From contig JACRIR010000130.1 in NCBI GenBank assembly GCA_016215705.1, forward strand, positions 1,456-65,455: a stretch of 64,000 bases of DNA. Direction: 5' to 3'. The DNA comes from Candidatus Poribacteria bacterium. GTDB taxonomy: Bacteria > Abyssobacteria > SURF-5. Shown one piece after another: positions 1,468 to 23,908 of the stretch. The notes beneath the pieces are model-generated. The model ran no database searches and was not told where the DNA came from. It worked only from the letters and a program-made list of their open reading frames with translations. The position numbers and the translations under genes were made by a program. Positions within the stretch are counted from its first letter, which is position 1; each line of letters opens with the position of its first letter.

Positions 1468-2280
1468 TCATTTGACGTCCGGGTCATTCTCTGGCTCTTC
1501 GGGAATTGCAGATGACGGACGGGTCGATGAAGCGACCGTTTCTTCCGCGCGTGTTTCCGCGCCCAGCTCGGTTCCCGGAACTTCGCGTCCCTCGAGGGCG
1601 CGCGCCTTTGCGTCGAGCACGGCGTCGGCAATGAAAGTAGTGAACAGCTTTATGGAGCGAATAGCGTCGTCGTTACCGGGTATCGGGTAGGTAACGTCGT
1701 CGGGGTCACAGTTTGTGTCAACAACTCCCACAGCGGGGATTTCCAGTTTCTTCGCCTCAGCGACTCCGATTGTTTCCTTTTTCGTGTCGATGATGAAAAT
1801 TGCGGAGGGTAGTTCCCCCATGTCCTTAATGCCAGACAGGTTTCTGTCCAGCTTGCTCTTTTCCTTCATGAGTTTGGCGATTTCCTTCTTCGTCATGTTG
1901 CCGAACTCGCCGTCCTGCTCCATCTTCTCGATCTTCTTGAGGCGGCGAATGCTCTTTTTGATGGTCTCAAAATTGGTCAATGTGCCGCCAAGCCAGCGGT
2001 TGGTCATGTAGAACATGCCGCAGCGCACGGCCTGCTCGCGCACCACTTCCTGGGCCTGCCTCTTCGTGCCTACAAAGAGGACGGTTCCTCCGCCTTCGAC
2101 GGTCTCGCGGATGAAATGATACACGGCATTCACCTGCTGAATAGTTTTCTGCAGGTCGATTATGTACACCCCATTGCGCTCGCCGAAAATGAACTTTTTC
2201 ATTTTCGGGTTCCACCTGCGCGCCTGATGGCCGAAATGCACGCCGGCCTCAAGCAACTGTTTCATGGTCACTATCGCCAT
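1468..2280 (-). CDS. rpsB: 30S ribosomal protein S2
   Basis: [46 protein letters not shown]...VDTNCDPD, the canonical S2 sequence. Start taken at MAIVTM; the N-terminal extension in the ORF track is rejected. Confidence 0.92.
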
Positions 2281-2650
2281 TCGATGAACCTCCCTGATTT
2301 TGGTTTGTCCACGGCTGCTGCGCCCGCGGGCAATCACGCCAAGAGCGTGACACCAGCCCGACAAGTTGTCTCACACCCTGAGACCGCAGAGCCTGTGTTT
2401 TGGTTAACAAATAATATAGCATATCGGGCTCCTTCATGGCAACTTCGGCCTTGACTTTGAAACTGTTCCCTTTGCTTTGTGCTTTTTGGTCGGCAAGTCA
2501 AACCACTGCGCGAGAAAAATCCGGCTTGAAATTCGGCCTGAAAATTGCTATGATAACAAATGATATTGTTAACCGTGGCTGGCACAACAATAATCAAGAC
2601 AATCTGAAGGAAAGACCCCGCTTTATGTGTCTTAAGGGAAAAAGTCTGTC

Positions 2651-3118
2651 TTGGAACTATACATCTTCGCGTGTCAGCACCGTGTCCCCGATGAGTGGCG
2701 TCCCCCGTTCTCGCCAGAGGAAATCAGCGGTCACAGAGTACGCCTGATCCAACTTCCTTGTTCCGCGAAGCTTAGTACCGTCCAGTTGCTCCGACCGTTT
2801 GAAAAAGGGATTGGTGGCATCATTGTATTGGCCTGCAGTGAATCGGGCTGCCGGTCGCTCGAGGGCAGTCGTCGCGCCCGATTGCGTGTTCTCGAGGCCA
2901 ACAATGTTCTCGACGAACTCGGCATGAGCGGCGCCCGCGTGCTCATAAAACAGGCAGACGAGCGAGACAAAATGCCTATTATTGAGGCAGTGAACGAGCT
3001 TTCGGACCGGATAGAAAAGCTTGGGCCAAGCGAGGAAGTCCGAAGAGAGAAGGGTGAAGGCTCAGAGCAGATGGAAAAGCCGGGCTTGAACCCGGCAAAG
3101 GGAAGTATCAAGAAATGA
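2651..3118 (+). CDS. MvhD/FlpD-like (methyl-viologen-reducing hydrogenase delta subunit family) electron-transfer protein
   Basis: Layout ...IQLPCSAKL...GIGGIIVLACSESGCRSLEGS...IEKLG matches the FlpD/MvhD domain pattern. The stop overlaps the metV start, so the two are translationally coupled. Confidence 0.6.
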   Translation: MELYIFACQHRVPDEWRPPFSPEEISGHRVRLIQLPCSAKLSTVQLLRPFEKGIGGIIVLACSESGCRSLEGSRRARLRVLEANNVLDELGMSGARVLIKQADERDKMPIIEAVNELSDRIEKLGPSEEVRREKGEGSEQMEKPGLNPAKGSIKK

Positions 3119-3795
3119 TTATTGCAGAACGTAAACCGTTGGAAGAGATATTGAGCATGATCGGCCAAGCTCGGTCGGTACTGATAGCCGGTTGCGCCAC
3201 GTGTGTGGCCGATTGCATGGCCGGCGGTGAGCGAGAGGTCGGCATCCTGGCGTCGGCCTTGCGCATAGCGCAGAGGCAGAGAAACGGGGATGTTGAGTTT
3301 GTCGAGGCGACCGTCGAGCGCCAGTGCGAACGTGAATTCATTGACCGCATCCGCGAACTGGTTGAGAAAGCCGACATTGTGATCTCGACTGCGTGCGGAA
3401 TCGGAGTGCAGGCAATGGCCGAGCGCTACGGCACAAAGCCCATCTATCCGGGCGTCAACACCAGGTTTCTCGGGCTTCGCGAGGAGGAGGGTTTGTGGAC
3501 CGAACGCTGCGGGGCGTGCGGCGATTGCACGCTCCATTTGACCGGCGGCGTCTGTCCCGTGGCACGTTGCTCGAAGAGCCTGCTCAATGGCCCGTGCGGC
3601 GGCTCGACAAAGGGCAAGTGCGAGGTCTCCGACGAGATTGATTGCGGCTGGCAACTGATTGTGGACCGTCTGAAGGCACTGGGCCAACTTGACCTGTTGG
3701 AAGTAAACATTCCGCCGAAGAACTGGGCCTCCGGTCGCCACGGTGGACCGCGGAAAGTAATAAAGAAAGAGCTGAGAGATGAAAAGCGGAAGTAA
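3115..3795 (+). CDS. metV: Methylene-THF reductase C-terminal-domain (zinc-ribbon) protein MetV
   Basis: Cys-rich motifs AGCATCVADC, CGACGDC, GPCGG...KCEV are typical of the MTHFR_C/MetV family. It lies immediately upstream of metF. Confidence 0.7.
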   Translation: MIIAERKPLEEILSMIGQARSVLIAGCATCVADCMAGGEREVGILASALRIAQRQRNGDVEFVEATVERQCEREFIDRIRELVEKADIVISTACGIGVQAMAERYGTKPIYPGVNTRFLGLREEEGLWTERCGACGDCTLHLTGGVCPVARCSKSLLNGPCGGSTKGKCEVSDEIDCGWQLIVDRLKALGQLDLLEVNIPPKNWASGRHGGPRKVIKKELRDEKRK

Positions 3796-4714
3796 CCTGG
3801 AGAAGGTGTTGCAGGCCGGCCACTTTGCGGTCACCGCCGAATTGGGGCCCCCGATGGGCTGCAACGCCGAAGTGGTTCAAAAGAAAATCCAACTGCTCGG
3901 GGGCGTTGCCGACGCTTATAACGTCACTGACTGCCAGACGGCGGTCGTTCGCATGAGCAGCATCGCGACGTCGATTTTTCTCGTTCAGTCGGGTTTGGAG
4001 CCTGTCATGCAGATGACGTGTCGCGATCGTAACCGGATCGCGATGCAGAGCGATATTCTCGGCGCGGCTGCGCACGGAATCAAGAATTGTCTTTGCATCG
4101 CAGGCGACCACCAGTCGTTCGGTGCAGCGGGCAAGCTCAAGGGGCATCCGGGCGCGAAGAACGTCTACGATGTTGACTCGATCCAACTGGTAGGGATACT
4201 GAAAGGCCTCCGCGACGAAGCGCGGCAGCAGGGAGGCGACCCGCTCGACGGGCGCGCGCCGCTGTTTATCGGAGCGGCTTGGACTCCTCTCGGCGACCCG
4301 GTTGAAATCCGTACAATGCGACTGGCTAAGAAAGTCAACGCAGGCGCCGATTTCGTCCAGACCCAGGCGGTCTTCGATATTGAGCGCTTTTCGGAAGCGA
4401 TGAAGAAAGCGCGCGACCGAGGATTGCACGAGCGCGTGGCTATTCTGGCCGGTATTATTGTGCCGAAGAGCGGGGGAATGCTTGCATATATGAACGAGTC
4501 GGTCCCCGGCGTGACTGTGCCGGAAGGGTTGATTCGCCGCATGAAAGGCGCGTCTGATCCGAAGGCCGAGGGCGTGGCCATCGCGATCGAGCTTGTGCAA
4601 CAGATCAAGCAGATAGAAGGCGTCCGCGGCGTTCATATCCAGGCGATTGAGTGGGAAGCCGCAGTGAGATCGGTCGTTGAAGGCGCAGGGCTTCTGCCCC
4701 GCCCAAAGCTGTAG
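3779..4714 (+). CDS. metF: 5,10-methylenetetrahydrofolate reductase (MetF, acetogen/anaerobe type)
   Basis: VTAELGPP...VTDCQTAVVRMS...QMTCRDRNR...GIKNCLCIAGDH...VQTQAVFD are the MetF TIM-barrel motifs. Confidence 0.85.
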   Translation: MKSGSNLEKVLQAGHFAVTAELGPPMGCNAEVVQKKIQLLGGVADAYNVTDCQTAVVRMSSIATSIFLVQSGLEPVMQMTCRDRNRIAMQSDILGAAAHGIKNCLCIAGDHQSFGAAGKLKGHPGAKNVYDVDSIQLVGILKGLRDEARQQGGDPLDGRAPLFIGAAWTPLGDPVEIRTMRLAKKVNAGADFVQTQAVFDIERFSEAMKKARDRGLHERVAILAGIIVPKSGGMLAYMNESVPGVTVPEGLIRRMKGASDPKAEGVAIAIELVQQIKQIEGVRGVHIQAIEWEAAVRSVVEGAGLLPRPKL

Positions 4715-4750
4715 GCGCCGATTTATTCGCACAGGGAAAAGAACAAGCAA

Positions 4751-6220
4751 ATGCCAAAGAAATATCATATAACCGCACAGGTGATGCCGCCCCGTTTTGC
4801 GCCTGTGCCCAAATACTCGATGATCGAGAAAGAGGGGTGTCTCGGGTGTCTCCAGTGCGCCAAGCGCGAATGCGTCTATGACGTCTATAAGAATCGGAAA
4901 TTCGATCCCGAGCAGATGATCGATTCTATAGACTATCTCTGCAAGAATTGCCTGCGCTGTATCCAGGGCTGCAAGAACCAGATTATATCAAAGATGTGCA
5001 ATCCTGATTACCAGGCGCTTGGCGACGAATACTGGAAGCCTGCCCTCATCTCGAGCCTGTGGGACCAGGCCACCAGCGGCAAGATTCCGGTCTCCGGCGC
5101 AGGATACCGCGGGCCGTTCTCGGGTCCGGGGTTTGACTCGATGTGGACCGATATGTCGGAGATTGTGCGGCCCACCCGCGACGGGATTCACGGCCGCGAA
5201 TACATCAGCACGTCCGTCGATATTGGCCGCAAGCTTGCGCAACTCGATTTCGGTCCGCGCGGCGAATTGCTCTCCGTAGCCCCACCGCTTGTCGAGATTC
5301 CCGTTCCGTTCATATTTGACAAGCTCCCGTTCGGCGTCATGAACGAGAATGTGCGGACCGGTTTGGTGCGCGCCGCCGAGATAGTTGGAACGATGTTGGT
5401 CATTCCGCAAAGCGACATTGACTGGAAACTGATGGCGCACATTGACAACATAATTCCGTTGATTACGGCTTTGACGCCTATCCGGGAACATGATGCGGCA
5501 TCACGTCCCCAAACAGGCGAGAGTCTTTTGGGAGAAATCATCGCGCGAGCGAGAATGATCGAACTGGAGGATGGCCCGGACGTCGCGAAGCAGATGGCGG
5601 CGGTTAAGGGAATCAATCCGTCGGTGGTGACGTGCATTCGCATGCCTGCGAGCAAGACCGTGGCCGGTCGCGTCGAGGAACTCACCCGTTCGGGCGCGGA
5701 AGTCATTCATATTATTGCCGATTGGCAGGGCGAAGAAACATGCGACCCTGCGGAGACAGGGCATGCTGCGCCCTCTCCCAGATTCATCAAAGAAGTGTTG
5801 CGCGAGGTTCATTTGAACCTGATAGACAAAGCGTTGCGTGATGAGGTCACTATCATAGCCGGCGGCGGCATCGCGATGGCCGAACACGTGGCCAAGGCGA
5901 TCATATGCGGGGCCGATCTCGTTGGCGTAGACATGGCGCTCGAGGTTGCGCTGGAGTGCCGGATGTGCAAGCGATGTCTGCATGGGCTGAGCTGTCCCGT
6001 GACCATTGAGGCGGTTGACTCCGAGTGGGCTGCTCTGCGAATTCGCAACCTGATTTGTTCGTGGCATTCACAGTTGATAGAGGTGCTCGGCGCGATGGGA
6101 ATCCGCGAAGTTCGACGGCTTCGAGGCGAAGTCGGCCGGGCGTTGTTCTTTGAAGATCTTGAAAAGGAGGCGTTCGGGGATGTCAGAATCGCCCCAGACA
6201 CTTACTATTCAACAAGATAG
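4751..6220 (+). CDS. Glutamate-synthase domain-2 (FMN TIM-barrel)-like protein with N-terminal Cys-cluster (ferredoxin-like) region; divergent paralog
   Basis: N-terminus carries CLGCLQCAKREC...CKNCLRCIQGC. C-terminus carries TIIAGGGIAMAEHVAKAIICGADLVGVD...CRMCKRC, resembling the GltS FMN-domain end but lacking the canonical GG(S/T)GA. Confidence 0.6.
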   Translation: MPKKYHITAQVMPPRFAPVPKYSMIEKEGCLGCLQCAKRECVYDVYKNRKFDPEQMIDSIDYLCKNCLRCIQGCKNQIISKMCNPDYQALGDEYWKPALISSLWDQATSGKIPVSGAGYRGPFSGPGFDSMWTDMSEIVRPTRDGIHGREYISTSVDIGRKLAQLDFGPRGELLSVAPPLVEIPVPFIFDKLPFGVMNENVRTGLVRAAEIVGTMLVIPQSDIDWKLMAHIDNIIPLITALTPIREHDAASRPQTGESLLGEIIARARMIELEDGPDVAKQMAAVKGINPSVVTCIRMPASKTVAGRVEELTRSGAEVIHIIADWQGEETCDPAETGHAAPSPRFIKEVLREVHLNLIDKALRDEVTIIAGGGIAMAEHVAKAIICGADLVGVDMALEVALECRMCKRCLHGLSCPVTIEAVDSEWAALRIRNLICSWHSQLIEVLGAMGIREVRRLRGEVGRALFFEDLEKEAFGDVRIAPDTYYSTR

Positions 6221-7694
6221 TTACGCGCATCTGAGGGGACGCGAGGCTATGGACACGCCTTCGCGTTTCCGGAACCGCGTGTCCAAATATCGGGTGTTCC
6301 GCAGCAGCGCATGCACCGCGTGCAACAAATGCGCCGAGTTGTGCCCTTACGGAGTCCACGTCCGCAGCGGCGACCGGATGCTTCGGCCCCGGGAGGCGTT
6401 TTGTATCGGGCTTGCATGCCGAAGCAACGACTTCTATTGCATATCCCAATGCCCTGAGAAAGCCTTGTCGATGGCGCTCAATCCTCTGTTTGAAACAATG
6501 GGCGACGCACGCTGGTCGGCCGATATGATACTCGCGACGTGGGTGATGGCCGAAACCGGGGACGTCCCTTCCGGCGGTCTTGAATATGAATTCGGCCGCT
6601 CAGGCGGGGGCTTCGACAAGCTGGCATTCGATTTTCCAAAAAAGCCGGCGATCAGTCTCGACGAGGAGGAGATAGACCTCAGTGTTGAGCTAAACCGCAG
6701 CGGCGACGAAGCCGAGCGGATAAGCATTGATATCCCGGTTTACGGCGGCGGCATGTCGTTCGGCTCGGTGAGCGAGCACACGATTCTTGGCCGCTGCATT
6801 GCCGCTCGCAACTGGAACACTTTCACGTGCACGGGAGAGGGCGGCTATATCGAGTCGATAGTCCCGTTTGCGAAACACGTGATCACGCAGGTGGCCACGG
6901 GCCTTTTCGGCGTGCGCGAAGAGACGATTCAGCGAGCGCGCATTATTGAGTTTAAATACGCACAAGGGGCCAAACCCGGCCTGGGCGGCCATCTTCTCGG
7001 AGACAAAGTGACGCCGCAGGTGGCCCGAATGCGGGAAGCGGTCGCAGGCAGTTCGCTGTTCTCGCCGTTCCCGTTCCATTCAGTGTATTCGGTCGAAGAC
7101 CATAAGAAACACGTCGACTGGATAAAAGCAATAACTCCGAGGTCGCTCATCTCGGTGAAAGTCTCGACGCCGACCGACGTGGACATGGTGGCCGTGGGCA
7201 GTTACTATGCAGGCGCACACATCGTGCACATAGACGGAAGCTATGGCGGCACGGGCGCGGCCCCCGACATCGCGAAGAAGAACATCGCGATGCCGATTGA
7301 ATACGCGATCCCGAAGGTTCATAAATTCCTCCGAGAGGAGGGCGTCCGCGACCGAATCGTCCTGGTCGCGTCCGGCGGCCTGCGCAACCCGTGGGACATT
7401 GCGAAGGCGATAGCTTTGGGCGCCGACGCAGTAGTGATCGGAACGGCTGAAATGGTTGCGCTCGAATGCATCCGCTGCGCCAATTGCGAGAGCGGCAGGG
7501 GATGCGCGCGAGGTATCGCCACGACTGACCCCGAATTGACGGAATTGATCCAGGTTGACTACGCTGCGCGGCGACTGAGCAATCTCTACCTGGCCTGGAG
7601 CAAAGAACTGAAACGCATACTAAAGCGGTTGGGAATGAGAAGCATACGCGAGTTGGTTGGCCGAACCGATTGTTTGATGCGTTTGAGGTCCTAA
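6180..7694 (+). CDS. gltB: Archaeal-type glutamate synthase FMN-binding subunit (GltB domain 2) with N-terminal 4Fe-4S ferredoxin domain
   Basis: CTACNKCAELCPYGV, then YGGGMSFGSVS...KYAQGAKPGLGGHL...DGSYGGTGAAP...LVASGGLRNPWDIAKAIALGAD...ALECIRCANC. Start chosen at MSESPQ (ATG 6180), 13 nt after a perfect AAGGAGG. Confidence 0.85.
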   Translation: MSESPQTLTIQQDSYAHLRGREAMDTPSRFRNRVSKYRVFRSSACTACNKCAELCPYGVHVRSGDRMLRPREAFCIGLACRSNDFYCISQCPEKALSMALNPLFETMGDARWSADMILATWVMAETGDVPSGGLEYEFGRSGGGFDKLAFDFPKKPAISLDEEEIDLSVELNRSGDEAERISIDIPVYGGGMSFGSVSEHTILGRCIAARNWNTFTCTGEGGYIESIVPFAKHVITQVATGLFGVREETIQRARIIEFKYAQGAKPGLGGHLLGDKVTPQVARMREAVAGSSLFSPFPFHSVYSVEDHKKHVDWIKAITPRSLISVKVSTPTDVDMVAVGSYYAGAHIVHIDGSYGGTGAAPDIAKKNIAMPIEYAIPKVHKFLREEGVRDRIVLVASGGLRNPWDIAKAIALGADAVVIGTAEMVALECIRCANCESGRGCARGIATTDPELTELIQVDYAARRLSNLYLAWSKELKRILKRLGMRSIRELVGRTDCLMRLRS

Positions 7695-7859
7695 GAAAGG
7701 GGAAAGGAGCAAGGCGAAAGGGGAAGAGCCAAGAAACAGAAAGATTGCTTCGCTCCGCTCGCAATGACCCGATGGGTATGCTGTTTCTCCAATGATTAAT
7801 CCTGCTGCAGACGGGCTGGGCGCTTGAAATACCAGCGAAGGGCTCGGTTAGGAACAAGG

Positions 7860-10475
7860 ATGATGGACAAGAAGGCTGAAAAGATACTCAATTCGCGGGC
7901 AAGGCTGCTCGATGGTCTTTCCCGTACAGAATCCCGCAAAGACGCGGAGGAAGGCGGCTGCGGCGTTGTCGGGTTCGCCTGCAACATCCCCGTCCGTGGC
8001 AAACACATCTATGAGCCCTCCTGCCAGATGCACAACAGGGGAAATGGAAAGGGAGGCGGGATTGCGGCGGTCGGCTTTGTGCCCGAGCAACTTGACGTGA
8101 GCCGCGAGGTTCTCGACTCGCACTATATGCTCCAGATCGGACTGCTCGATCCGACTGCCCGGACCGCTGTCGAAAAGGAATATGTTCTGCCTCATTTCGC
8201 CATAGCGAGCGCCGGCATGGTTCCGACGGTTGGCGACTATCGCGAAGTCGAGGGACTCGACGTCAGACCTCCCGACGTGCTCCGCTACTTTGTCAGGGTC
8301 AAGCCGGACGCACTCGATCAATTCATCCGCGAAAACAAGCTTGAGGCGCTCGAGCGGGACGACGCCGAAGACGAGTTCGTTCATCAGAACAGCTTCAAGT
8401 TGAACCGCGCGTACTACGCCTCGCTGGGCGACAAAAAGGCGTTTGTGCTGTCGCACGGCAAGAACATGATGATTCTGAAAATCGTGGGCTTCGCCGAAAA
8501 AGTGGCCCAATACTATCTGCTCGATGAGTTCAAGGCGCACTGCTGGATAGCGCATCAACGCTATCCCACCAAGGGGCGCGTTTGGCATCCTGGCGGCGCG
8601 CATCCGTTCATCGGGATGAACGAAGCGCTCGTGCACAACGGCGATTTCGCCAATTATCTTTCGGTCAGCGAATACCTCAAAATGCGCAACGTCTATCCGC
8701 TGTTTCTGACCGACACCGAGGTTTCCGTCCTGCTGTTCGACCTCTGGAAGCGCGTGTACGGATACCCGCTCGAGTACGTGATCGAGGCGATGGCGCCCAC
8801 AACCGAGTTGGATTTCGACCGGCTGCCTCCGGAGAAGCAGCGCGTCTATCGGCACATTCAGTCATCTCATATACATGGGTCGCCCGACGGCCCGTGGTTC
8901 TTCATCATCGCGCGAAACAATACGACTCAGAAGCAGTTCCAGCTTATCGGCATCACGGATACGGCGATGCTGCGGCCGCAGGTGTTTGCTCTCTCTAAAG
9001 GCGAAGTCGAGATCGGCCTGTGCTGTTCGGAGAAGCAGGCCATCGACGCCACGCTTCACTCACTGGCGGAGGAAGACCCTCGTTTCCATCCGATAGCGGA
9101 CAAATACTGGAACGCTCGCGGCGGGAGCCACACCGACGGCGGCGCCTTCATATTCACGCTTTCCGGCGACGGCGACGTGAAGAAGCTGACTTGCACCGAC
9201 AAATTCGGTTTCGAGGTGACGCTGCCATCGAACAAGAAGCATCGGAATAGGGGAGTCGAGGTTGCGACGCCGCAGGGCTCACACGAGTTGGCCGCTGAGA
9301 TCGACGAACTGGTCAAAGCGGGAGACGCCGACGCGCTTTTCGGTTGGTTGTCAGGAGGACTGCGCGTATGGCAGTATGACACGCTCGGATGCGCGCTGAA
9401 TAAAACTGTGCGCGCAGCCGGCGCAAACGACGAAAAGCGCACCACCGTTATCAAGGCGCTCACGCTTCTCAATGACCGCCGCTATCCCACGGGGGACAAG
9501 AAGCGGAGTTCGGTCCTCGAGCTTGTGAGGAGCGCGCTCAGGTCGGTCTTCGAGGGCTGTCTCCCTATCACAGCGGATGGGATATCGCGGTTCCGTTTCA
9601 TCGATTGGCATACGCGCCATCAACTGCGGGCGCCGCGTGACGGCGAGCAGACTCTCGTGCTCAACGCGGCCGGATTCAGCGCCGAAGGACCTTTGTGTCA
9701 TTCGCGCCTGTTCGTGGACGCATACCGCCTGGGCTGGAAGAGATTTATCGCGTACGGACTCAAGGGAGAGCGGTTTTCGGGCTGCGGTTTCGGGTCAGGG
9801 ACGGAAGGCGTGGTCATTGACTTATATGACAGCGTCGGCGATTACGTCGCCTCGGGAATCGACGGCATGGAGATTTACATCCACGGCAATGGCCAGGACC
9901 AACTGGCCCAGATAATCAAAGCCGGAAAGCTCGTTGTGTATGGGGACGTGGGGCAGACGTTCATGTATGGCGCCAAGGGCGGCGCCGTCTACGTAATGGG
10001 TAACGCCGCCGGGCGTCCTCTCATAAACGCAGTCGGAAAGCCACGCGTGATCATCAACGGCACGTGCCTCGACTTCCTGGCCGAATCGTTCATGGCCGGC
10101 GACGCGCTCAACGGAGGCGGTTTCGTGGTTCTCAATGGAATGGAGATTGACGACGACGGCAACGTTCATGAAATGCCCCTGCCTTATCCCGGCTCGAATT
10201 TGTTCTCTCTCGCATCAGGCGGCGCCATTTACGTGCGGGACCCGCGTCGTTGCGTGATCGACGAACAATTGAACGGCGGCGAGCTCGTTTCCATGACCGA
10301 GAAAGACTGGCGGCTGATCCTTCCCATGCTGGAGGAAAACGAGCGCCTCTTCGGCGTCTCGGTGAAAGAACACTTGCTCAAGGTCAACGGCCGGCCGATG
10401 CGCCCGGAAGACGTCTACCGCAAAGTTCGGCCTGTCAAGTTGGCGGTCCTGGCAAAGAAGGATGACACGGAATGA
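7860..10475 (+). CDS. Fused glutamine amidotransferase class-II domain + glutamate synthase GXGXG (alpha-subunit C-terminal) domain protein
   Basis: N-terminal part has GGCGVVGFAC and the Ntn amidotransferase fold motifs (HQRYPTKG, HNGDF). C-terminal part has GCGFGSGTEGVVIDLYDSVGDYVASGIDG...YGDVGQTFMYGAKGGAVYVMGNAAG, the GXGXG domain. Start taken at MMDKK (7860). Confidence 0.8.
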   Translation: MMDKKAEKILNSRARLLDGLSRTESRKDAEEGGCGVVGFACNIPVRGKHIYEPSCQMHNRGNGKGGGIAAVGFVPEQLDVSREVLDSHYMLQIGLLDPTARTAVEKEYVLPHFAIASAGMVPTVGDYREVEGLDVRPPDVLRYFVRVKPDALDQFIRENKLEALERDDAEDEFVHQNSFKLNRAYYASLGDKKAFVLSHGKNMMILKIVGFAEKVAQYYLLDEFKAHCWIAHQRYPTKGRVWHPGGAHPFIGMNEALVHNGDFANYLSVSEYLKMRNVYPLFLTDTEVSVLLFDLWKRVYGYPLEYVIEAMAPTTELDFDRLPPEKQRVYRHIQSSHIHGSPDGPWFFIIARNNTTQKQFQLIGITDTAMLRPQVFALSKGEVEIGLCCSEKQAIDATLHSLAEEDPRFHPIADKYWNARGGSHTDGGAFIFTLSGDGDVKKLTCTDKFGFEVTLPSNKKHRNRGVEVATPQGSHELAAEIDELVKAGDADALFGWLSGGLRVWQYDTLGCALNKTVRAAGANDEKRTTVIKALTLLNDRRYPTGDKKRSSVLELVRSALRSVFEGCLPITADGISRFRFIDWHTRHQLRAPRDGEQTLVLNAAGFSAEGPLCHSRLFVDAYRLGWKRFIAYGLKGERFSGCGFGSGTEGVVIDLYDSVGDYVASGIDGMEIYIHGNGQDQLAQIIKAGKLVVYGDVGQTFMYGAKGGAVYVMGNAAGRPLINAVGKPRVIINGTCLDFLAESFMAGDALNGGGFVVLNGMEIDDDGNVHEMPLPYPGSNLFSLASGGAIYVRDPRRCVIDEQLNGGELVSMTEKDWRLILPMLEENERLFGVSVKEHLLKVNGRPMRPEDVYRKVRPVKLAVLAKKDDTE

Positions 10476-10483
10476 ATTAGGGG

Positions 10484-10520
10484 CAAACGGGGAAAAGGGA
10501 AGCAAACCCGTTTGTTGTTT
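10484..10520 (+). terminator. Putative rho-independent terminator after the glt-like operon
   Basis: Hairpin CAAACGGG-gaaaagggaagcaaa-CCCGTTTG followed by TTGTTT. Confidence 0.5.
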
Positions 10521-10580
10521 CGTGTAGAATAGTTCCCGGGTTACGCCGCACTGTCATCGGGCGATATTCCGACAATAGCC

Positions 10581-10664
10581 GTCATTCTGCGCGAAACGAA
10601 GAAGCTACTGAAATGCAAAGGCTTCAAGACCGAAGACGAGATTCTTCGCTTCGCTCAGAATGAC
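10581..10664. repeat. MITE-like element with 25-bp terminal inverted repeats (GTCATTCTG[A/C]GCGAAGCGAAGAA[T]C family, here called REP-5)
   Basis: GTCATTCTGCGCGAAACGAAGAAGC ... GATTCTTCGCTTCGCTCAGAATGAC are near-perfect inverted arms. The same motif recurs at 21436, 31276 and 62495, with a partial copy at 26411-26458. Confidence 0.7.
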
Positions 10665-10782
10665 AATTTAATCTCCCTTTTTCGCTTTGTTCCTTTCGTT
10701 TTTCGTCTTCTTTTGCTTTTTCTCTTTTTGATCTTTCCTTCTCATGAAGCTTGCATGATTTCTCTCCGCCCGTTAGAATATC

Positions 10783-11445
10783 GTGACAATGAAGACGCGA
10801 CTGTGCCGGATCATTGATTTGGGGCTCTGCTCCTTCGAGGAAGCGTACTCGCTTCAGAAGAAGGTCGTTCAGTCGAAAATCGGCGGATCGACTGAAGACA
10901 CGCTCATACTTGTCGAGCATCTTCCTATTATCACCATGGGACGCCGGGGCCGCTTCGAACATGTCTGCGCACCACCTGAGAGGTTGAAGGCAGAAGGAAT
11001 AGAGGTGCAAAGCACGGACAGGGGCGGGGATGTAACCTATCACGGTCCGGGCCAACTCGTCGGATATCCCATAATCGATCTGAGGGCTCACAAACAGGAT
11101 GTCGACTGGATTCTCAGGCAGTTGGAGGCTGTCATCATCAGTTCGCTCAAACGCTTGAATATCGACGCCTGCGCGATACCCGGGCTGACGGGCGTGTGGG
11201 TGGGCGGCGCCAAGATAGCGGCTATTGGAATCGGTGTCAGCCATTGGATAACGTTTCACGGGTTCGCCCTCAACGTTGACCCTCGCATGAAACATTTCGA
11301 TCTCATTATTCCTTGCGGACTCAAGAACAAGCCTGTCACGTGCTTGCGCGACGTGCTCCGTGATATGCCTTCGATGGGCGGTGTGAAGCAGATCATCATC
11401 GAGAGCTTTTGCGAAACCTTCGGTTTGGAGCGGATTTGCGCTTGA
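10783..11445 (+). CDS. lipB: Octanoyltransferase (lipoyl(octanoyl) transferase)
   Basis: LILVEHLPIITMGRRG...GGDVTYHGPGQLVGYPI...KIAAIGIGVS matches the LipB catalytic region. Confidence 0.88.
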   Translation: MTMKTRLCRIIDLGLCSFEEAYSLQKKVVQSKIGGSTEDTLILVEHLPIITMGRRGRFEHVCAPPERLKAEGIEVQSTDRGGDVTYHGPGQLVGYPIIDLRAHKQDVDWILRQLEAVIISSLKRLNIDACAIPGLTGVWVGGAKIAAIGIGVSHWITFHGFALNVDPRMKHFDLIIPCGLKNKPVTCLRDVLRDMPSMGGVKQIIIESFCETFGLERICA

Positions 11446-18411: not shown

Positions 18412-20010
18412 GTGGCGCAGACGCGTGAACTGTTCGCCGACTATTGCAGCGGATTTGAAAGGCTGCGCCATTTTTTTCGTTATGATCCTCGTGATCTGTC
18501 CGGGGCTATGAGCGAACTCCGAGGAACGCAGCAGCGGCGTTTCAGCGAGAACCAGCTCAATGAAATCAGGCTCTACAACAAGAGAATGGATTGCAGCAAT
18601 GAGACGCTCGCAAACATCGACAAGCTCGGTGTGGATGGAACGCTGGCCGTTGTCACCGGCCAGCAGCCGGGCATCTTCACAGGACCTCTCTATACAATCT
18701 ACAAGACGCTCACCGCAATAAAACTCGCGAAACACATCACGGATCGCTTTGGCGTCGCTGCCGTGCCCGTGTTCTGGAATGCATCCGAGGATCACGACTT
18801 TCAGGAAGTGCGGCATGCGGAGATCATAAACCGCGACAGTCGCGTGATAAGCCTGCTCTATGAGCCGAAGACCGATATAGAAGGCAAATCCATATTCGAC
18901 ATTCCTCTCGAGCCTTCGATCAACTTCCTGATAGACCTTATGGCGGGAGACACAAACGAGAGCGAATTCAAGACGTATCTCGTCGATTTGCTTCGGAACT
19001 CTCTCGGGCGCTGTTATTCGCTCGCCGACTGGTTCTCGCACCTCATGCAGGCGCTCTTCAATTCCTACGGGCTGATCATATTCGACGCCCACCTGCCGCC
19101 GTGCCGCGAGCTTGCGCGCCCGATCATAGGACGCGAGATAAAGATACCGGTGCGCTCATCGCGCCTGATCAACGAGGCAGGCGCACAGCTCAAGTCATTG
19201 GCCTATCACCAGCAAATAGCGCGGAACGCGGACGATGTGAATTTCTTCTTTTACGCGCAAGGAAGACGGAACAAGGTTCGGTTCAAAAAAAACAAATTCC
19301 TTGTGGATCGCGTCGGGCTGGAGTATGATCAGAATGAGATGCTCGACATGCTGGCTGAAGAGCCACAGCGCTTCAGCCCCAGCGCGGTGTTGAGACCGCT
19401 CATACAGGACCATATTCTCCCGACGGTCGCTTACGTGGCCGGTCCGGGTGAGATAGCGTACTTCGCGCAGATGCGCAACACTTACGTGTTCTTTGAGCTC
19501 GTCATGCCCGTGATATATCCCCGGAGCCGGGCGGTGCTCATCGAACCCAGGATCGCGAAGATTCTGCGGAGATACGGACTCCGCGTGGACGACGCATTCA
19601 AAAACAGAAGAGACCTGCTCAAAGCAATCGTGTCGCAGGGGGCGCCGTCTGCCGTTGTGCAATCATGCGACCGGAATCTCGAGGGCATACAGATCATTCT
19701 CGACGAGTTCAGGCGCGAAGTGAGCGAATTCGAGCCGACTCTTGTGGACCCCGTAGACAAGCTCAAGAGGAAGATCGGCTCCGAGATGGATAATCTGCGG
19801 GACAAACTGGCGCAAGCGGGAAAGCTCGACACCGAGGTAGTCGAGCAGCAAGTGGAAAAACTCAAGGCCCACCTCTTCCCCGAGGGAAAAGAGCAGGAGA
19901 GGGTATTCAATATCTTTCCTTACCTCTTTTCGAACGGGATTCAATTCATATCGCGATTGGAAAAAACACTCGATATCGCGAACTTCGACAGGCAGGAGAT
20001 ATACGTGTGA
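18412..20010 (+). CDS. bshC: Bacillithiol biosynthesis cysteine-adding enzyme BshC-family protein
   Basis: Signature VVTGQQPGIFTGPLYTIYKTLTAI near the N-terminus and AYVAGPGEIAYFAQ later; about 530 aa. GTG start immediately after the pyk stop. Confidence 0.7.
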   Translation: MAQTRELFADYCSGFERLRHFFRYDPRDLSGAMSELRGTQQRRFSENQLNEIRLYNKRMDCSNETLANIDKLGVDGTLAVVTGQQPGIFTGPLYTIYKTLTAIKLAKHITDRFGVAAVPVFWNASEDHDFQEVRHAEIINRDSRVISLLYEPKTDIEGKSIFDIPLEPSINFLIDLMAGDTNESEFKTYLVDLLRNSLGRCYSLADWFSHLMQALFNSYGLIIFDAHLPPCRELARPIIGREIKIPVRSSRLINEAGAQLKSLAYHQQIARNADDVNFFFYAQGRRNKVRFKKNKFLVDRVGLEYDQNEMLDMLAEEPQRFSPSAVLRPLIQDHILPTVAYVAGPGEIAYFAQMRNTYVFFELVMPVIYPRSRAVLIEPRIAKILRRYGLRVDDAFKNRRDLLKAIVSQGAPSAVVQSCDRNLEGIQIILDEFRREVSEFEPTLVDPVDKLKRKIGSEMDNLRDKLAQAGKLDTEVVEQQVEKLKAHLFPEGKEQERVFNIFPYLFSNGIQFISRLEKTLDIANFDRQEIYV

Positions 20011-21374: not shown

Positions 21375-21568
21375 TTTCCCGCAACAACTGGTAGCATTGG
21401 CGAAGACGGATTCCCCCGAGATGGTAATGGAATACGCCGTTCTGAGCGAAGCGAAGGGTCTCCGAGTGGCGCCTTGCTGCAAAGACGGTGAGGGGAAATC
21501 GTGGCAGGAATTCAAGATATCGAACCTGAGTAGTACAGAACGACACCGGAAACAGGGACTGCAAAGAA

Positions 21569-22576
21569 ATGAAACCACACAAGTTTTTTAATGAATACGC
21601 CGCCCGTGTGATTGACGGCGACAGACTCGGCCGCGATGAAGCCGCCAAAATGCTCGCCACTCCACACGAGGACGTGCTTCATTTGGTTGCTGCGGCGAAC
21701 GACGTTCGCCTCCACTTTAAAAATGACCGCGTGGATTTCTGCGCCATCGTCAACACGAAATCGGGGTCGTGCAGCGAAGACTGCGCCTTTTGCGCGCAGT
21801 CAGCGCATCACGAAACCGGCGCGTCCGTGTACCCTCTGATGGAGGAGCGAGAAATTCTCAGGCGGGCGAAGGAAGCCGAGGCGATGGGCGCCAACAAGCT
21901 CTGCTTTGTTACAAGTGGGAGGGGCATCGAAAGCGACGACGACCTTGACAAGGTCTGTTCGGCAATCAGATCCATCGCCCGCGAGACCGCGCTCGACAGG
22001 TGCGCGTCTCTCGGCGCTCTCGGGCGTCGCCAGCTCGACAGGCTCAAGGCGGCGGGGTTGCAGAGCTTGCACCACAATATCGAGACTGCCGAAAGTTTCT
22101 TTGGTGGAATCTGCACCACGCACACGTATGCCGACAGAATCGATACAATCAACCTGGCGAAGGAACTGGGTTTTTATGTTTGCTGCGGCGGCATATTCGG
22201 GATGGGCGAATCGGAGGAGCAGCGAATCGAGATGGCTCTTGCCATAAGAGAATTGGACATTGACTCGGTCCCGATGAATTTTCTGAATCCCATTCGCGGG
22301 ACGCCGTTGGAACATGCCAGGCCTCTTCAACCACTCGATATATTGAAAACGATAGCAGTGTTCAGATTCCTGCTGCCCGACAAAGACATAAGGGTTTGCG
22401 GGGGGCGCGAGAAAAACCTGCGTTCATTGCAGCCTTTCATATATCTGGCCGGCGCAAATTGCGCTGTGCTCGGGAACTATCTGACGACTCAGGGACGTGA
22501 CTACCGGGAAGACCTCGAGATGATAGCCGACCTTGGCCTGCGAGCGGCGCGCGGAGGAACCCTAGTGGGCGGTTGA
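21569..22576 (+). CDS. bioB: Biotin synthase
   Basis: Radical-SAM CxxxCxxC (GSCSEDCAFCAQS), plus YHHNIETA and the NLAKELGFYVCCGGIFGMGES region. Confidence 0.92.
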   Translation: MKPHKFFNEYAARVIDGDRLGRDEAAKMLATPHEDVLHLVAAANDVRLHFKNDRVDFCAIVNTKSGSCSEDCAFCAQSAHHETGASVYPLMEEREILRRAKEAEAMGANKLCFVTSGRGIESDDDLDKVCSAIRSIARETALDRCASLGALGRRQLDRLKAAGLQSLHHNIETAESFFGGICTTHTYADRIDTINLAKELGFYVCCGGIFGMGESEEQRIEMALAIRELDIDSVPMNFLNPIRGTPLEHARPLQPLDILKTIAVFRFLLPDKDIRVCGGREKNLRSLQPFIYLAGANCAVLGNYLTTQGRDYREDLEMIADLGLRAARGGTLVGG

Positions 22577-22611
22577 GCGCGTTCGCATCGAATGGCTCTT
22601 GCGGAGAAACT

Positions 22612-22646
22612 TCCTCCACCCCCTTTGCCAAAGGGGGGATTTCCCC
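22612..22646. repeat. REP-2 palindromic repeat copy (CCCCCTTTGC-AAAGGGGG family)
   Basis: CCTCCACCCCCTTTGCCAAAGGGGGGATTTCCCC in the bioB-bioF intergenic space. Confidence 0.7.
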
Positions 22647-22695
22647 AATGAACGACGCAATGCTGATTTGTCCAAATGAACACTAGAAGACAATT

Positions 22696-23898: not shown

Positions 23899-23908
23899 AC
23901 GAAAACTA

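What the first reader, a model, noticed from the sequence alone, without database searches (positions are those of the whole stretch)
2651..10475. MvhD-like/MetV/MetF cluster immediately followed by three glutamate-synthase-domain proteins
The metVF genes preceded by a FlpD/MvhD-like gene indicate an electron-bifurcation-type methylene-THF reductase module, as in Wood-Ljungdahl or anaerobic C1 metabolism. Instead of the hdrABC genes that normally accompany mvhD-metVF in acetogens and sulfate reducers, the downstream genes encode Fd-domain plus FMN (GltS domain 2) proteins and a GATase plus GXGXG fusion. These may simply be an archaeal-type ferredoxin-dependent glutamate synthase. Alternatively, the GltS-like flavoproteins with Fe-S domains could serve as the electron-input module for MetF, an arrangement I do not recall being described.
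Basis: inference. Interest (0 to 1): 0.6.

Follow-up and report, generated by a model that had tools for sequence, protein, structure and literature searches.

The report
Glutamate synthase operon wired to MetVF
Six co-transcribed genes join a split, iron-sulfur-rich glutamate synthase to an MvhD-MetV-MetF methylene-folate reductase module, and because this linkage recurs across many anaerobe phyla it probably marks an undescribed redox partnership between nitrogen and one-carbon assimilation.

Summary
Window 2651-10475 (+) holds mvhD, metV, metF, then a degenerate GltS-FMN paralogue ("gltA'"), a catalytically intact Fd-domain + GltS-FMN subunit (gltB), and a GATase + GXGXG fusion (gltC). The genes overlap or lie close together, with one promoter-like site upstream and one terminator-like hairpin downstream.

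The arrangement is not chance. Of the 65 related genome loci with enough upstream DNA, 39 keep mvhD-metV-metF-gltA'-gltB-gltC and 59 keep metV and/or metF next to the glt genes. These loci span Desulfobacterota, Chloroflexota, Planctomycetota, Verrucomicrobiota, Armatimonadota and Abyssobacteria. No hdrABC occurs in the window or among the recurrent genes of those flanks. The recurrent extra neighbours are glnA, glnK, amt and glutamine-using amidotransferases, so the context is nitrogen assimilation, not Wood-Ljungdahl.

GltB and GltC keep every catalytic motif checked and are most likely a real GOGAT. GltA' has lost the substrate and FMN loops but keeps three 4-Cys motifs, and it is fused to GltB in two loci. 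Closely related MetFs instead pair with a GltD-like-MvhD fusion.

Best reading: one ferredoxin-level Fe-S wire (GltA'/MvhD/MetV) serves both GOGAT and MTHFR. The direction of electron flow is unresolved. I found no description of this arrangement in the literature. It lies outside MTHFR types I-IV.

The parts
2526..2594 (+). Two sigma-70-like promoter candidates: TTGAAA-17-TATGAT with an extended -10 TG at 2526-2554, and a second site at 2566-2594. They lie in the divergent intergenic region between rpsB (- strand) and mvhD.
   Evidence: These are consensus matches only. No Rfam element or riboswitch was found in 2200-10900.
2651..3118 (+). mvhD. MvhD/FlpD-type [2Fe-2S] electron-transfer protein, 155 aa, TTG start.
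   Evidence: PF02662, 71.8 bits. It matches solved MvhD chains 9sfi_K, 7bkb_F and 5odc_D. Four Cys (8, 37, 62, 67) are 100% conserved in 43 family members.
3115..3795 (+). metV. Cys-rich Fe-S subunit of MetVF-type MTHFR, 226 aa. Its start overlaps the mvhD stop (ATGA).
   Evidence: PF12225/DUF5981, 125 bits. Thirteen Cys are conserved, including CxxCxxxC and CxxCxxC. No solved homologue was found.
3779..4714 (+). metF. Methylene-tetrahydrofolate reductase TIM-barrel flavoprotein, 311 aa. It overlaps metV by 17 nt.
   Evidence: PF02219, 111 bits. The best solved match is Thermus MTHFR 1v93. The motifs that I take to correspond to E. coli Glu28, Asp120 and Gln183 (E..PP, GD, TQ) are conserved in 49 members.
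4751..6220 (+). gltA' (working name). Degenerate paralogue of the GltS FMN/synthase subunit, 489 aa. It has two N-terminal 4-Cys motifs and one CxxCxxCx5C motif in the barrel. The substrate and FMN loops are lost. Proposed role: Fe-S electron hub.
   Evidence: Glu_synthase, only 63 bits. 27% identical to GltB over the full length. Cys 30/33/36/41, 64/67/70/74 and 403/406/409/415 are 99-100% conserved, while residues ~200-300 are not conserved. The AF2 barrel is confident and the best folds are GltS alpha 1ofd/6s6s. It is fused to GltB in L081 and L087.
6249..7694 (+). gltB. Catalytic GltS FMN/synthase subunit with an N-terminal 2x4-Cys ferredoxin-like domain. The ORF opens at 6150; the probable start is ATG 6249.
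   Evidence: Glu_synthase, 316 bits. 177 bits to A. brasilense GltS alpha residues 855-1170, with KYAQGAKPGLGGHLLG and the other loops intact. Cys 55/58/61/65, 85/90/97/101 and 440/443/446/452 are conserved.
7695..7859 (+). gltB-gltC spacer, 165 nt and purine-rich. It contains one copy of a REP-like intergenic motif (7749-7768). No significant structure is predicted.
   Evidence: Fold z-score -0.17. No Rfam hit. Motif search.
7860..10475 (+). gltC. Fusion of a class-II (Ntn) glutamine amidotransferase domain, a helical linker and a GXGXG beta-helix domain. The ORF opens at 7824; the probable start is ATG 7860. The catalytic Cys (Cys46 in ORF numbering) follows a ~33-residue propeptide.
   Evidence: GXGXG 37 bits, GATase_6 26 bits. 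EGGC46GV, MHNRGNGKGGG, AHQRYPT.GRVWHPGGAHPF, VHNGDFANY and TDTEV are >=90% conserved. The best folds for the AF2 model are GltS alpha chains 7mfm_G, 6s6s_A and 1ofe_A, then GlmS and PurF.
10482..10522 (+). Candidate intrinsic terminator of the operon. It has a 10-bp stem and a U-rich tail, and sits 7 nt after the gltC stop.
   Evidence: MFE -15 kcal/mol, z-score -2.3.

Best explanation
Window 2651-10475 is one operon for a composite iron-sulfur flavoenzyme system.

GltB (FMN/synthase subunit) and GltC (glutaminase + GXGXG) form a real, NAD(P)H-independent, split ('archaeal-type') glutamate synthase that works with glutamine synthetase in ammonium assimilation.

GltA' is a duplicated GltB that has lost its substrate loops but kept three 4-Cys cluster motifs. 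It pairs with GltB and serves as an Fe-S hub. MvhD ([2Fe-2S]) and MetV (Fe-S) extend this wire to MetF.

Most likely scheme (inferred): electrons at ferredoxin level enter through the ferredoxin-like N-terminal domains of GltA'/GltB (and/or MetV). They are then delivered both to the GltB FMN (2-oxoglutarate + Gln -> 2 Glu) and, via MvhD-MetV, to MetF (methylene-THF -> methyl-THF). Two anabolic reductases would thus share one input module.

Shown: gene content, conserved catalytic and cluster motifs, conserved synteny, fusions and context.

Inferred: the physical complex, the identity of the donor and the direction of electron flow.
For: Operon structure:
- Overlapping or closely spaced genes, a promoter-like site only upstream of mvhD, no terminator inside, and a hairpin after gltC.
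- Locus L088 shows the same six genes with 0-nt gaps or overlaps.

Conserved linkage:
- Of 65 loci with enough upstream DNA, 39 are mvhD-metV-metF-gltA', 9 are mvhD-metF-gltA', 5 are mvhD-metV-gltA' and 5 are mvhD-gltA'. Two have metVF moved downstream but still linked. They span at least 8 phylum-level lineages.

Real GOGAT:
- GltB keeps all the GltS synthase loops checked.
- GltC keeps Cys1 and the Ntn-amidotransferase motifs.
- Recurrent neighbours are glnA (14 loci), PII (12), amt (10), gatA/gatB and carA. Examples are amt-glnK-glnA-mvhD-metV-gltA'BC in L043/L052 and guaA-pyrG-nadE-mvhD-gltA'BC in L010.

GltA' as a non-catalytic Fe-S partner of GltB:
- Lost loops but conserved clusters, a GltS fold, and GltA'-GltB fusion proteins of 968 and 1014 aa.

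MvhD-MetV as a general adaptor between an input module and MetF:
- MetFs 66-70% identical to the window's sit behind a GltD-like(NAD(P)H/FAD/Fe-S)-MvhD fusion plus MetV and lack glt genes.
- These close relatives need a dedicated NAD(P)H module, and purified MetVF enzymes use reduced ferredoxin, not NAD(P)H (PMC8760232). MetF itself is therefore unlikely to be an NAD(P)H entry point.

An input independent of MetF:
- Variants with MvhD or MvhD-MetV but no MetF show that the GltS part has an electron input that does not depend on MetF.
Against: - No experiment, transcript or protein-interaction data exist for any member.
- Conserved operon membership can reflect co-regulation without a physical complex.
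- There is no obvious physiological reason to co-regulate methionine-branch C1 reduction with nitrogen assimilation.
- The donor is unidentified. MvhD normally docks to a hydrogenase or to HdrA, so an unlinked partner (hydrogenase, or a GltD/NfnB-like protein) may be the true input.
- ANME-1 relatives carry a GlcD-like FAD/Fe-S dehydrogenase in the slot upstream of gltA'. That looks like a donor module and, by analogy, would favour MetVF acting as a donor.
- The AF2 models are only medium confidence (pLDDT 73), and the Fe-S regions are poorly modelled.
- I could not check whether these genomes carry a second metF or a gltBD.
Confidence: 0.45

Rival explanations
1. Two independent enzymes are merely co-transcribed. 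One is a ferredoxin-dependent MvhD-MetVF MTHFR and the other is a split ferredoxin-dependent GOGAT. They share no subunits and do not exchange electrons.
For: Each half resembles a known self-sufficient enzyme. MetVF alone is active with reduced ferredoxin (PMC8760232). GltB and GltC carry every GOGAT motif checked. Variants without MetF or MetV exist.
Against: MvhD stays directly upstream of gltA' even when metVF is absent (5 loci). MetV stays there without MetF (5 loci). The median metF-gltA' gap is 29 bp across phyla, and the linkage survives rearrangement in L011/L012. A stand-alone MvhD has no known function except bridging two redox partners.
Confidence: 0.2
2. MetVF-MvhD is the electron-donor module of the GOGAT and is the functional replacement of GltD. 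Methyl-THF is oxidised to methylene-THF, and the electrons pass through MetV-MvhD-GltA' to the GltB FMN. This would be a methyl-THF-dependent glutamate synthase.
For: The operon lacks any other dehydrogenase-type subunit. The slot upstream of gltA' holds interchangeable flavo-Fe-S modules, including a GlcD/D-lactate-dehydrogenase-like FAD + 2x[4Fe-4S] protein in ANME-1. In canonical GltS the beta subunit feeds the alpha subunit, and here GltD is absent. Methylene/methyl-THF has E0' = -200 mV (PMC8760232). From my own knowledge, reductive amination with glutamine hydrolysis is more positive and effectively irreversible, so the reaction is feasible. Many hosts are Desulfobacterota or Dehalococcoidia that may run C1 oxidation.
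Against: Loci with MvhD only or MvhD-MetV only still need a donor, so MetF cannot be the general input. An anabolic glutamate flux is a poor sink for, or a poor consumer of, methyl groups. Many hosts (Verrucomicrobiota, Armatimonadota, Planctomycetota) have no evident methyl-THF source.
Confidence: 0.15
3. The complex is completed by an unlinked partner that docks on MvhD. Candidates are a GltD/NfnB-like NAD(P)H oxidoreductase, HdrA or a hydrogenase. This would make it NAD(P)H- or H2-dependent and possibly electron-bifurcating, with methylene-THF or 2-iminoglutarate as the high-potential acceptor.
For: In solved complexes MvhD bridges a hydrogenase or formate dehydrogenase to HdrA (hits 5odc, 7bkb, 9sfi). 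In sister clusters MvhD is covalently fused to a GltD-like NAD(P)H module. Type IV MTHFR uses HdrABC-MvhD (PMC8760232).
Against: No such partner occurs among the window ORFs annotated or among the recurrent genes of the 80 loci's flanks. Bifurcation needs a dedicated flavin with two diverging paths, for which there is no evidence.
Confidence: 0.12
4. The GltS-like proteins are not a glutamate synthase but only the electron-input module for MetF. One example would be glutamate oxidation driving methylene-THF reduction; another would be a purely structural role for the GATase and GXGXG parts.
For: GltA' is clearly non-catalytic. Pfam scores for the GATase and GXGXG domains are low.
Against: GltB and GltC are 60-65% identical across phyla, with all glutaminase and synthase motifs invariant. 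The glnA/amt/glnK context points to GOGAT. Some loci have gltA'BC with no metF at all. From my own knowledge of the potentials, glutamate to methylene-THF would be uphill.
Confidence: 0.05

Closest known systems
Split 'archaeal-type' glutamate synthase. Separate genes encode the amidotransferase, FMN and GXGXG domains. It is known from genome annotation and has not been biochemically characterised (Vanoni 2021, PMC8097209).
   Same: There is no GltD. The FMN subunit carries an N-terminal 2x[4Fe-4S]-type domain. The glutaminase and GXGXG parts are encoded apart from the FMN subunit. Catalytic motifs are intact.
   Different: The GATase and GXGXG domains are fused in one 870-aa protein. There is an additional, catalytically degenerate FMN-subunit paralogue (GltA'), sometimes fused to GltB. 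MvhD, and usually MetV and MetF, are encoded in the same operon. The barrel cluster motif has four Cys (CxxCxxCx5C) rather than the three-Cys [3Fe-4S] motif of bacterial GltS alpha.
Type IV MTHFR, MetFV-HdrABC-MvhD, of Moorella thermoacetica (Mock et al. 2014, as summarised in PMC8760232).
   Same: An mvhD-metV-metF module is encoded with additional Fe-S flavoproteins that are thought to supply or split electrons.
   Different: There is no hdrA, hdrB or hdrC in the window or among the recurrent genes of the related loci's flanks. The partners are GltS-type proteins. There is no NADH-binding subunit. The context is nitrogen assimilation, not Wood-Ljungdahl.
Type II MetVF MTHFR of Clostridium ljungdahlii, Thermoanaerobacter kivui and Eubacterium callanderi. 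It depends on reduced ferredoxin (PMC8760232, PMC8515935).
   Same: A MetF + MetV pair with overlapping genes. MetV has conserved Cys motifs. A ferredoxin-level donor is likely.
   Different: Here MvhD precedes metV and three GltS-type genes follow. In some relatives MetV occurs with GltA'BC without MetF.
Bacterial NADPH-glutamate synthase alpha-beta (GltB/GltD; structures 1ea0, 6s6s, 7mfm).
   Same: The same synthase chemistry and fold for GltB and GltC. The logic is an accessory Fe-S/flavin module feeding the FMN site.
   Different: The alpha chain is split. No central domain was detected above threshold. GltD is absent. Interestingly, the GltD-like module turns up fused to MvhD in the sister MetVF clusters that lack glt genes.
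N-methylglutamate synthase MgsABC (GATase-like, GXGXG and FMN subunits). This comparison rests on my own knowledge.
   Same: The same three domain types are encoded as separate proteins.
   Different: No match to an Mgs model among the NCBIfam hits. No gmaS or mgd genes appear among the recurrent neighbours. Conserved Fe-S motifs and ferredoxin-like domains indicate a redox enzyme.

Membership tests
MetVF-type methylenetetrahydrofolate reductase | MetF TIM-barrel MTHFR domain above the Pfam gathering score | tested here: met
   PF02219, 111 bits against a cut-off of 24. Matches Thermus, yeast and human MTHFR structures.
MetVF-type methylenetetrahydrofolate reductase | Catalytic residues equivalent to E. 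coli Glu28, Asp120 and Gln183 | tested here: met
   E..PP, GD and TQ motifs are conserved in 49 cluster-linked MetFs. The mapping to E. coli numbering is my own and was done by motif, not by structural superposition.
MetVF-type methylenetetrahydrofolate reductase | Adjacent MetV (PF12225) with conserved Cys clusters | tested here: met
   125 bits. Thirteen conserved Cys. The gene overlaps metF by 17 nt.
MetVF-type methylenetetrahydrofolate reductase | Methylene-THF reduction with reduced ferredoxin | not testable with these tools
   An enzyme assay is needed.
Type IV (Hdr-coupled, putatively bifurcating) MTHFR | hdrA, hdrB and hdrC in the cluster | tested here: not met
   There is no Hdr domain among the window ORFs annotated and no Hdr-type gene among the recurrent gene clusters of the 80 loci that I annotated.
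Type IV (Hdr-coupled, putatively bifurcating) MTHFR | MvhD present | tested here: met
   PF02662, 71.8 bits. Four Cys invariant.
Glutamate synthase (GOGAT), split/archaeal-type | Synthase/FMN domain with intact 2-oxoglutarate/FMN loops and a barrel Fe-S cluster | tested here: met
   GltB scores 316 bits to PF01645. The KYAQGAKPGLGGHLLG, GGMSFGS, DGSYGGTGAAP and ASGG motifs and Cys440/443/446/452 are >=90% conserved.
Glutamate synthase (GOGAT), split/archaeal-type | Class-II (Ntn) glutaminase with catalytic N-terminal Cys | tested here: met
   Cys46 in EGGCGV is 98% conserved, along with the Arg/Asn/Asp motifs. The fold matches GltS alpha, GlmS and PurF. Removal of the ~33-aa propeptide is assumed, not shown.
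Glutamate synthase (GOGAT), split/archaeal-type | GXGXG beta-helix domain | tested here: met
   PF01493, 37.1 bits against a cut-off of 32.5. A beta-helix is predicted at residues ~650-810.
Glutamate synthase (GOGAT), split/archaeal-type | Genomic association with ammonium assimilation (glnA, amt, glnK) | tested here: met
   This holds in related loci, not in this window. glnA is found in 14 loci, PII in 12 and amt in 10. L043/L052 are amt-glnK-glnA-mvhD-metV-gltA'BC.
Glutamate synthase (GOGAT), split/archaeal-type | Gln + 2-oxoglutarate + 2e- -> 2 Glu activity | not testable with these tools
   An enzyme assay or genetic complementation is needed.
NAD(P)H-glutamate synthase alpha-beta | GltD (Fer4_20 + Pyr_redox_2) beta subunit | tested here: not met
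   It is absent from the operon, from the window ORFs annotated and from the recurrent genes of the flanks. It is present only in sister MetVF clusters, as a fusion with MvhD.
N-methylglutamate synthase MgsABC | Non-redox three-subunit enzyme encoded with gmaS and mgdABCD | tested here: not met
   No such genes appear among the recurrent neighbours. Three conserved 4-Cys motifs per FMN-type subunit indicate redox function. No Mgs model appears among the NCBIfam hits.

The most novel reading that the evidence does not exclude
The six proteins form one supercomplex that is both a new class of glutamate synthase and a fifth type of MetVF methylene-THF reductase. A catalytically dead GltS paralogue (GltA') plus MvhD and MetV hard-wire the FMN site of GOGAT to the flavin of MetF. 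Either one ferredoxin-level input feeds nitrogen and C1 assimilation together, or methyl-THF oxidation directly pays for glutamate synthesis. The slot upstream of gltA' would then be a plug-in site for alternative redox modules: MvhD-MetVF, MvhD-MetV, MvhD, or a GlcD-like dehydrogenase in ANME-1.
Probability: 0.45. Interest if true: 0.78.

Novelty: new variant of a known kind. Interest (0 to 1): 0.64.

Why it matters
Two long-standing gaps meet here.

First, the physiological electron donor and partner of MetVF-type methylene-THF reductases is still debated (PMC8760232). Current schemes list only four architectures, and this one fits none of them.

Second, the electron donor and subunit composition of the split 'archaeal-type' glutamate synthases used by many strict anaerobes have never been established (PMC8097209).

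This gene cluster is very widespread. At least 548 species-level genomes and more than 8000 database proteins carry relatives, from Desulfobacterota and Chloroflexota to Planctomycetota, Verrucomicrobiota and ANME-1. It links the two enzymes through MvhD, MetV and a degenerate GltS paralogue. That gives a concrete, testable hypothesis and defines six proteins to co-express and purify. It would also change how metF and gltB are read in metagenome-based metabolic reconstructions. For example, a metVF-mvhD cluster is often taken as a marker of the Wood-Ljungdahl pathway.

Tried and rejected
- hdrABC, mvhAG and Wood-Ljungdahl genes. I annotated most window ORFs of at least 150 aa with Pfam and found none. 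None is among the recurrent genes in 80 related loci.
- Riboswitch or leader RNA (THF, SAM, glutamine) upstream of mvhD or in the 165-nt gltB-gltC spacer. There was no Rfam match at E <= 1, and the spacer fold is not better than shuffles.
- Sigma-54 (GG-N10-GC) promoter upstream of mvhD. By eye, TGGCAC at 2580-2585 lacks a -12 GC element, so I rejected it. This is a manual reading.
- N-methylglutamate synthase. Rejected (see membership test).
- GltA' as a second catalytic GltS. Rejected because the synthase loops are absent and residues ~200-300 are not conserved.
- MetF as an NAD(P)H entry point. Judged unlikely, because MetFs 66-70% identical to it carry a dedicated GltD-like NAD(P)H module and purified MetVF enzymes do not use NAD(P)H.
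- Literature. Eight full-text searches combining MetV/MetF/MetVF, MvhD, glutamate synthase/GltB and GXGXG, plus reading of hits. No description of this arrangement turned up. The nearest items are GltD-type genes drawn next to met genes in Actinobacteria (PMC7325909) and FrhB-linked GltS genes in ANME (PMC9012536).
- Cultured organisms carrying the cluster. I could not retrieve any, because only the best 80 loci (all MAGs) were returned. No transcriptome or proteome data could therefore be consulted.

Full report
**1. What is in the window**

ORF listing and profile searches confirm six same-strand genes.

| Gene | Coordinates | Domains and scores |
|---|---|---|
| mvhD | 2651-3118 | FlpD, 71.8 bits |
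| metV | 3115-3795 | PF12225, 125 bits |
| metF | 3779-4714 | MTHFR, 111 bits |
| gltA' (my name) | 4751-6220 | Glu_synthase, only 63 bits; Cys-rich N-terminus |
| gltB | ORF 6150-7694, probable start 6249 | 4Fe-4S dicluster + Glu_synthase, 316 bits |
| gltC | ORF 7824-10475, probable start 7860 | GATase_6, 26 bits; GXGXG, 37 bits |

- mvhD/metV overlap by 4 nt and metV/metF by 17 nt. The metF-gltA' gap is 36 nt.
- Sigma-70-like sites occur only upstream of mvhD. Nothing terminator-like lies between the genes.
- A 10-bp hairpin with a U-rich tail follows gltC.
- Upstream, on the other strand, are rpsB and tsf. Downstream are lipB and two pilT-like genes.
- Among the window ORFs I annotated (most ORFs of at least 150 aa) there is no hdrABC, mvhAG, CODH/ACS or folate-C1 gene.
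- The 4751 protein is identical to an NCBI 'hypothetical protein' of a MAG labelled Candidatus Poribacteria. The nearest relatives are Ca. Abyssobacteria/Hydrogenedentota, at 70-77% identity.

**2. Is the linkage more than chance?**

A scan of one genome per GTDB species found at least 548 loci encoding a GltA' relative, and the best 80 were fetched. I ran tblastn of the six window proteins against those loci. Arrangements directly upstream of gltA', for the 65 loci with at least 2.6 kb of upstream DNA, were:

| Arrangement | Loci |
|---|---|
| mvhD-metV-metF | 39 |
| mvhD-metF (Planctomycetota, Verrucomicrobiota, Armatimonadota, Dehalococcoidia) | 9 |
| mvhD only | 5 |
| mvhD-metV without metF | 5 |
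| metV-metF | 2 |
| metF only | 2 |
| mvhD upstream with metVF displaced to just downstream of gltC | 2 |
| none (ANME-1) | 1 |

- The median metF-to-gltA' gap is 29 bp.
- gltB and gltC follow wherever the contig allows, with one exception (ANME-1 locus L062).
- The hosts span Desulfobacterota (Syntrophorhabdaceae, Desulfomonilaceae, Syntrophaceae, Desulfarculaceae, Desulfobacteraceae), Chloroflexota, Planctomycetota, Verrucomicrobiota, Armatimonadota, Latescibacterota, Bacteroidota, Ca. Abyssobacteria and ANME-1 archaea.

Synteny kept across that much divergence (about 45-55% identity for GltA' and about 50% for MetF) is strong evidence of functional coupling.

**3. Context**

I clustered all ORFs of the 80 loci.

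- The six core genes are the only near-universal ones.
- The next most frequent neighbours are glutamine synthetase (14 loci), PII (12), ammonium transporter (10), a class-I GATase, gatA, gatB and carA.
- Explicit examples: L043/L052 are amt-glnK-glnA-mvhD-metV-gltA'-gltB-gltC. L010 is guaA-pyrG-nadE-mvhD-gltA'BC. ANME-1 L060 is glnA-[GlcD-like FAD + 2x4Fe-4S protein]-gltA'BC-carB-carA.

The setting is nitrogen and glutamine metabolism, not the Wood-Ljungdahl pathway.

**4. The proteins**

*GltB*
- It aligns to the synthase domain of A. brasilense GltS alpha (residues 855-1170, 177 bits).
- The KxAQGAKPGxGG loop and the other FMN/2-oxoglutarate motifs are intact and at least 90% conserved in 58 relatives.
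- Its barrel cluster motif is CxxCxxCx5C. That is one Cys more than the three-Cys [3Fe-4S] motif of bacterial GltS, which suggests a [4Fe-4S] cluster (inference).
- Two further 4-Cys motifs lie in the N-terminal domain.

*GltC*
- It has the Ntn-amidotransferase catalytic set. This comprises Cys46 in EGGCGV (98% conserved) and the MHNRGNGKGGG, AHQRYPT.GRVWHPGGAHPF, VHNGDFANY and TDTEV motifs.
- It also has a GXGXG beta-helix.
- The AF2 model (pLDDT 73) best matches whole GltS alpha chains, then GlmS and PurF.
- Cys46 follows a conserved ~33-residue leader that would have to be removed. Bacterial GltS alpha and PurF also mature by losing an N-terminal propeptide (my own knowledge).
- GltC is 60-65% identical across phyla, which indicates a strongly constrained enzyme.

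*GltA'*
- It is a full-length paralogue of GltB, 27% identical, with a confidently predicted GltS-type barrel.
- It lacks the GGMSFGS, CTGEGG, QVATGLFGV, KYAQGAKPGLGG, SPFPFHS and DGSYGGTGAAP motifs, and residues ~200-300 are not conserved.
- Twelve cluster Cys, the GGG/GAD phosphate-binding segment and a striking signature are invariant. The signature is GkIPVSGaGYxGpFxGpGFDsMWTDMSEIVRPTRDGIHGREY, at residues 110-151.
- I read it as a non-catalytic Fe-S subunit, possibly also binding flavin.

*MvhD, MetV and MetF*
- MvhD keeps its four Cys and MetV keeps thirteen.
- MetF keeps the motifs corresponding to the E. coli catalytic Glu, Asp and Gln.

**5. Reciprocal test from MetF**

The 120 closest MetF homologues fall into two length classes. 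I looked up eight of them, and length predicted context every time.

MetFs of 311-312 aa (3 of 3) sit in FlpD-MetV-MetF-GltA'(B)-GltC clusters:
- L081, Chloroflexi, MetF 75% identical.
- L087.
- L088, where all six genes abut or overlap.

In L081 and L087, GltA' and GltB are one polypeptide of 968 and 1014 aa. This Rosetta-stone fusion indicates that the two act together.

MetFs of 327-340 aa (5 of 5) are not Glt-linked:
- Four follow a 660-714-aa fusion of a GltD-like NAD(P)H/FAD/Fe-S module with MvhD, then MetV. These are L083, L085, L089 (next to an MttB-family methyltransferase) and L090 (near folD).
- One sits in a sensor/CCG/GltD-HdrA-like cluster.

So MvhD-MetV acts as an adaptor that connects MetF to alternative modules. 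The two halves of a classical alpha-beta glutamate synthase each turn up as partners: beta-like in one architecture and alpha-like in the other. A rough NJ ordering places the GltD-linked MetFs next to, or within, the Glt-linked ones. I did not test this further.

**6. Mechanism**

Published MetVF enzymes use reduced ferredoxin and not NAD(P)H. Four MTHFR architectures (I-IV) are recognised (PMC8760232), and the present one is none of them.

Three observations shape the model:
- Loci with only MvhD or MvhD-MetV still encode a complete GOGAT, so the GltA'BC(+MvhD) unit must have its own electron entry.
- The only candidates encoded are the ferredoxin-like domains of GltA' and GltB (and MetV).
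- Close MetF relatives need a dedicated NAD(P)H module, so MetF itself is unlikely to oxidise NAD(P)H.

The most economical scheme is therefore a ferredoxin-fed Fe-S wire that serves both the GltB FMN and, via MvhD-MetV, MetF. I give the full scheme 0.45. The sub-claims 'GltB/GltC are a real GOGAT' and 'the two halves are functionally coupled' each rate about 0.75-0.8.

Alternatives:
- Co-transcribed but independent enzymes (0.2).
- MetVF as the donor module, that is, methyl-THF-driven glutamate synthesis. The GlcD-like dehydrogenase in the same slot in ANME-1 favours this. The metF-less variants argue against it (0.15).
- An unlinked GltD-like, HdrA or hydrogenase partner docking on MvhD, possibly bifurcating (0.12).

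**7. Novelty**

Eight full-text searches and the papers read gave no description of an MvhD-MetVF-GltS cluster. A 2021 review still describes the split archaeal-type GltS only as ORFs (PMC8097209). Databases label the proteins 'hypothetical', 'ferredoxin', 'glutamate synthase-related' or simply 'glutamate synthase'.

I cannot exclude a mention in subscription journals or supplementary tables.

I rate it a new variant of known kinds (GOGAT; MetVF MTHFR), of real interest to anaerobe bioenergetics and to metagenome annotation.

**8. Limits**

- All evidence is comparative sequence analysis.
- No cultured carrier was retrieved, so no expression data could be consulted.
- Whole-genome co-occurrence (a second metF, gltD, WL genes) could not be checked.

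Noticed in passing
L081:9948-12854 and L087:9962-13006: GltA' and GltB are fused into single proteins of 968 and 1014 aa in a Chloroflexi MAG and another MAG. The N-terminal half is 42-48% identical to the window's GltA' and the C-terminal half is 61-66% identical to GltB.
   Followed up: yes
L083:6219-8294, L085:6207-8282, L089:2955-5042, L090:5256-7238: A sister architecture: a 660-714-aa fusion of a GltD-like module (Fer4_20 + Pyr_redox_2 + 2x4Fe-4S) with a C-terminal MvhD, followed by metV-metF and no glt genes. In L089 it lies next to an MttB-family methyltransferase, and in L090 it lies near folD. This is probably an NAD(P)H-linked MetVF reductase/dehydrogenase that also sits outside types I-IV.
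   Followed up: partly
L060:2516-4351 and L080:71-1981 (ANME-1 / Methanophagales): In ANME-1 the slot directly upstream of gltA'BC holds a 611-636-aa GlcD/D-lactate-dehydrogenase-like protein (FAD_binding_4 + FAD-oxidase_C + 2x[4Fe-4S]) instead of MvhD-MetVF. It is flanked by glnA and carBA. It may be an alternative electron-donor module.
   Followed up: partly
window 7749-7768, 10581-10600(-), 10645-10664, 21436-21455(-), 31276-31295(-): A REP-like intergenic motif, TTCGCTYCGCTCRSAATGAC, occurs five times against 0.07 expected. The copies at 10581-10606 and 10639-10664 form a 26-nt inverted repeat (88% complementary) downstream of gltC.
   Followed up: partly
window 31561-36323: A lower-GC stretch (about 0.49-0.51, against about 0.56 elsewhere). 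It holds a 1089-aa metallophosphatase + NACHT + FGE-sulfatase-domain protein (31561-34830) and a reverse transcriptase (RVT_1, 35229-36323). It may be a mobile or defence island.
   Followed up: no
window 10783-11445 and 26707-31150: lipB, together with a lipoate-dependent 2-oxoacid dehydrogenase E1alpha/E1beta/E2 set, occurs in a genome that also carries anaerobe-type MvhD/MetV Fe-S proteins. bshC (bacillithiol synthesis) lies at 18412-20010. Together these hint at a facultative or microaerotolerant lifestyle.
   Followed up: no
window 4751-6220 (P0001): The source MAG is labelled 'Candidatus Poribacteria' at NCBI. However, every close relative of these proteins (70-93% identity) comes from Ca. 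Abyssobacteria/Hydrogenedentota MAGs, so the taxonomic label may be wrong.
   Followed up: no
window 41302-52940: A flagellar export and regulation cluster (fliR, flhB, flhA, flhF, a MinD/FlhG-like gene, fliM, fliN, a sigma-28-type sigma factor, fliK). The biotin operon bioB-bioF-bioD-bioA lies at 21569-26374.
   Followed up: no
window 5054-5203 (GltA' residues 110-151): An almost invariant 40-residue signature (GkIPVSGaGYxGpFxGpGFDsMWTDMSEIVRPTRDGIHGREY) that AF2 models with very low confidence (pLDDT < 50). A weaker counterpart exists in GltB. It may be a subunit interface or a cofactor-binding segment. Its role is unexplained.
   Followed up: partly
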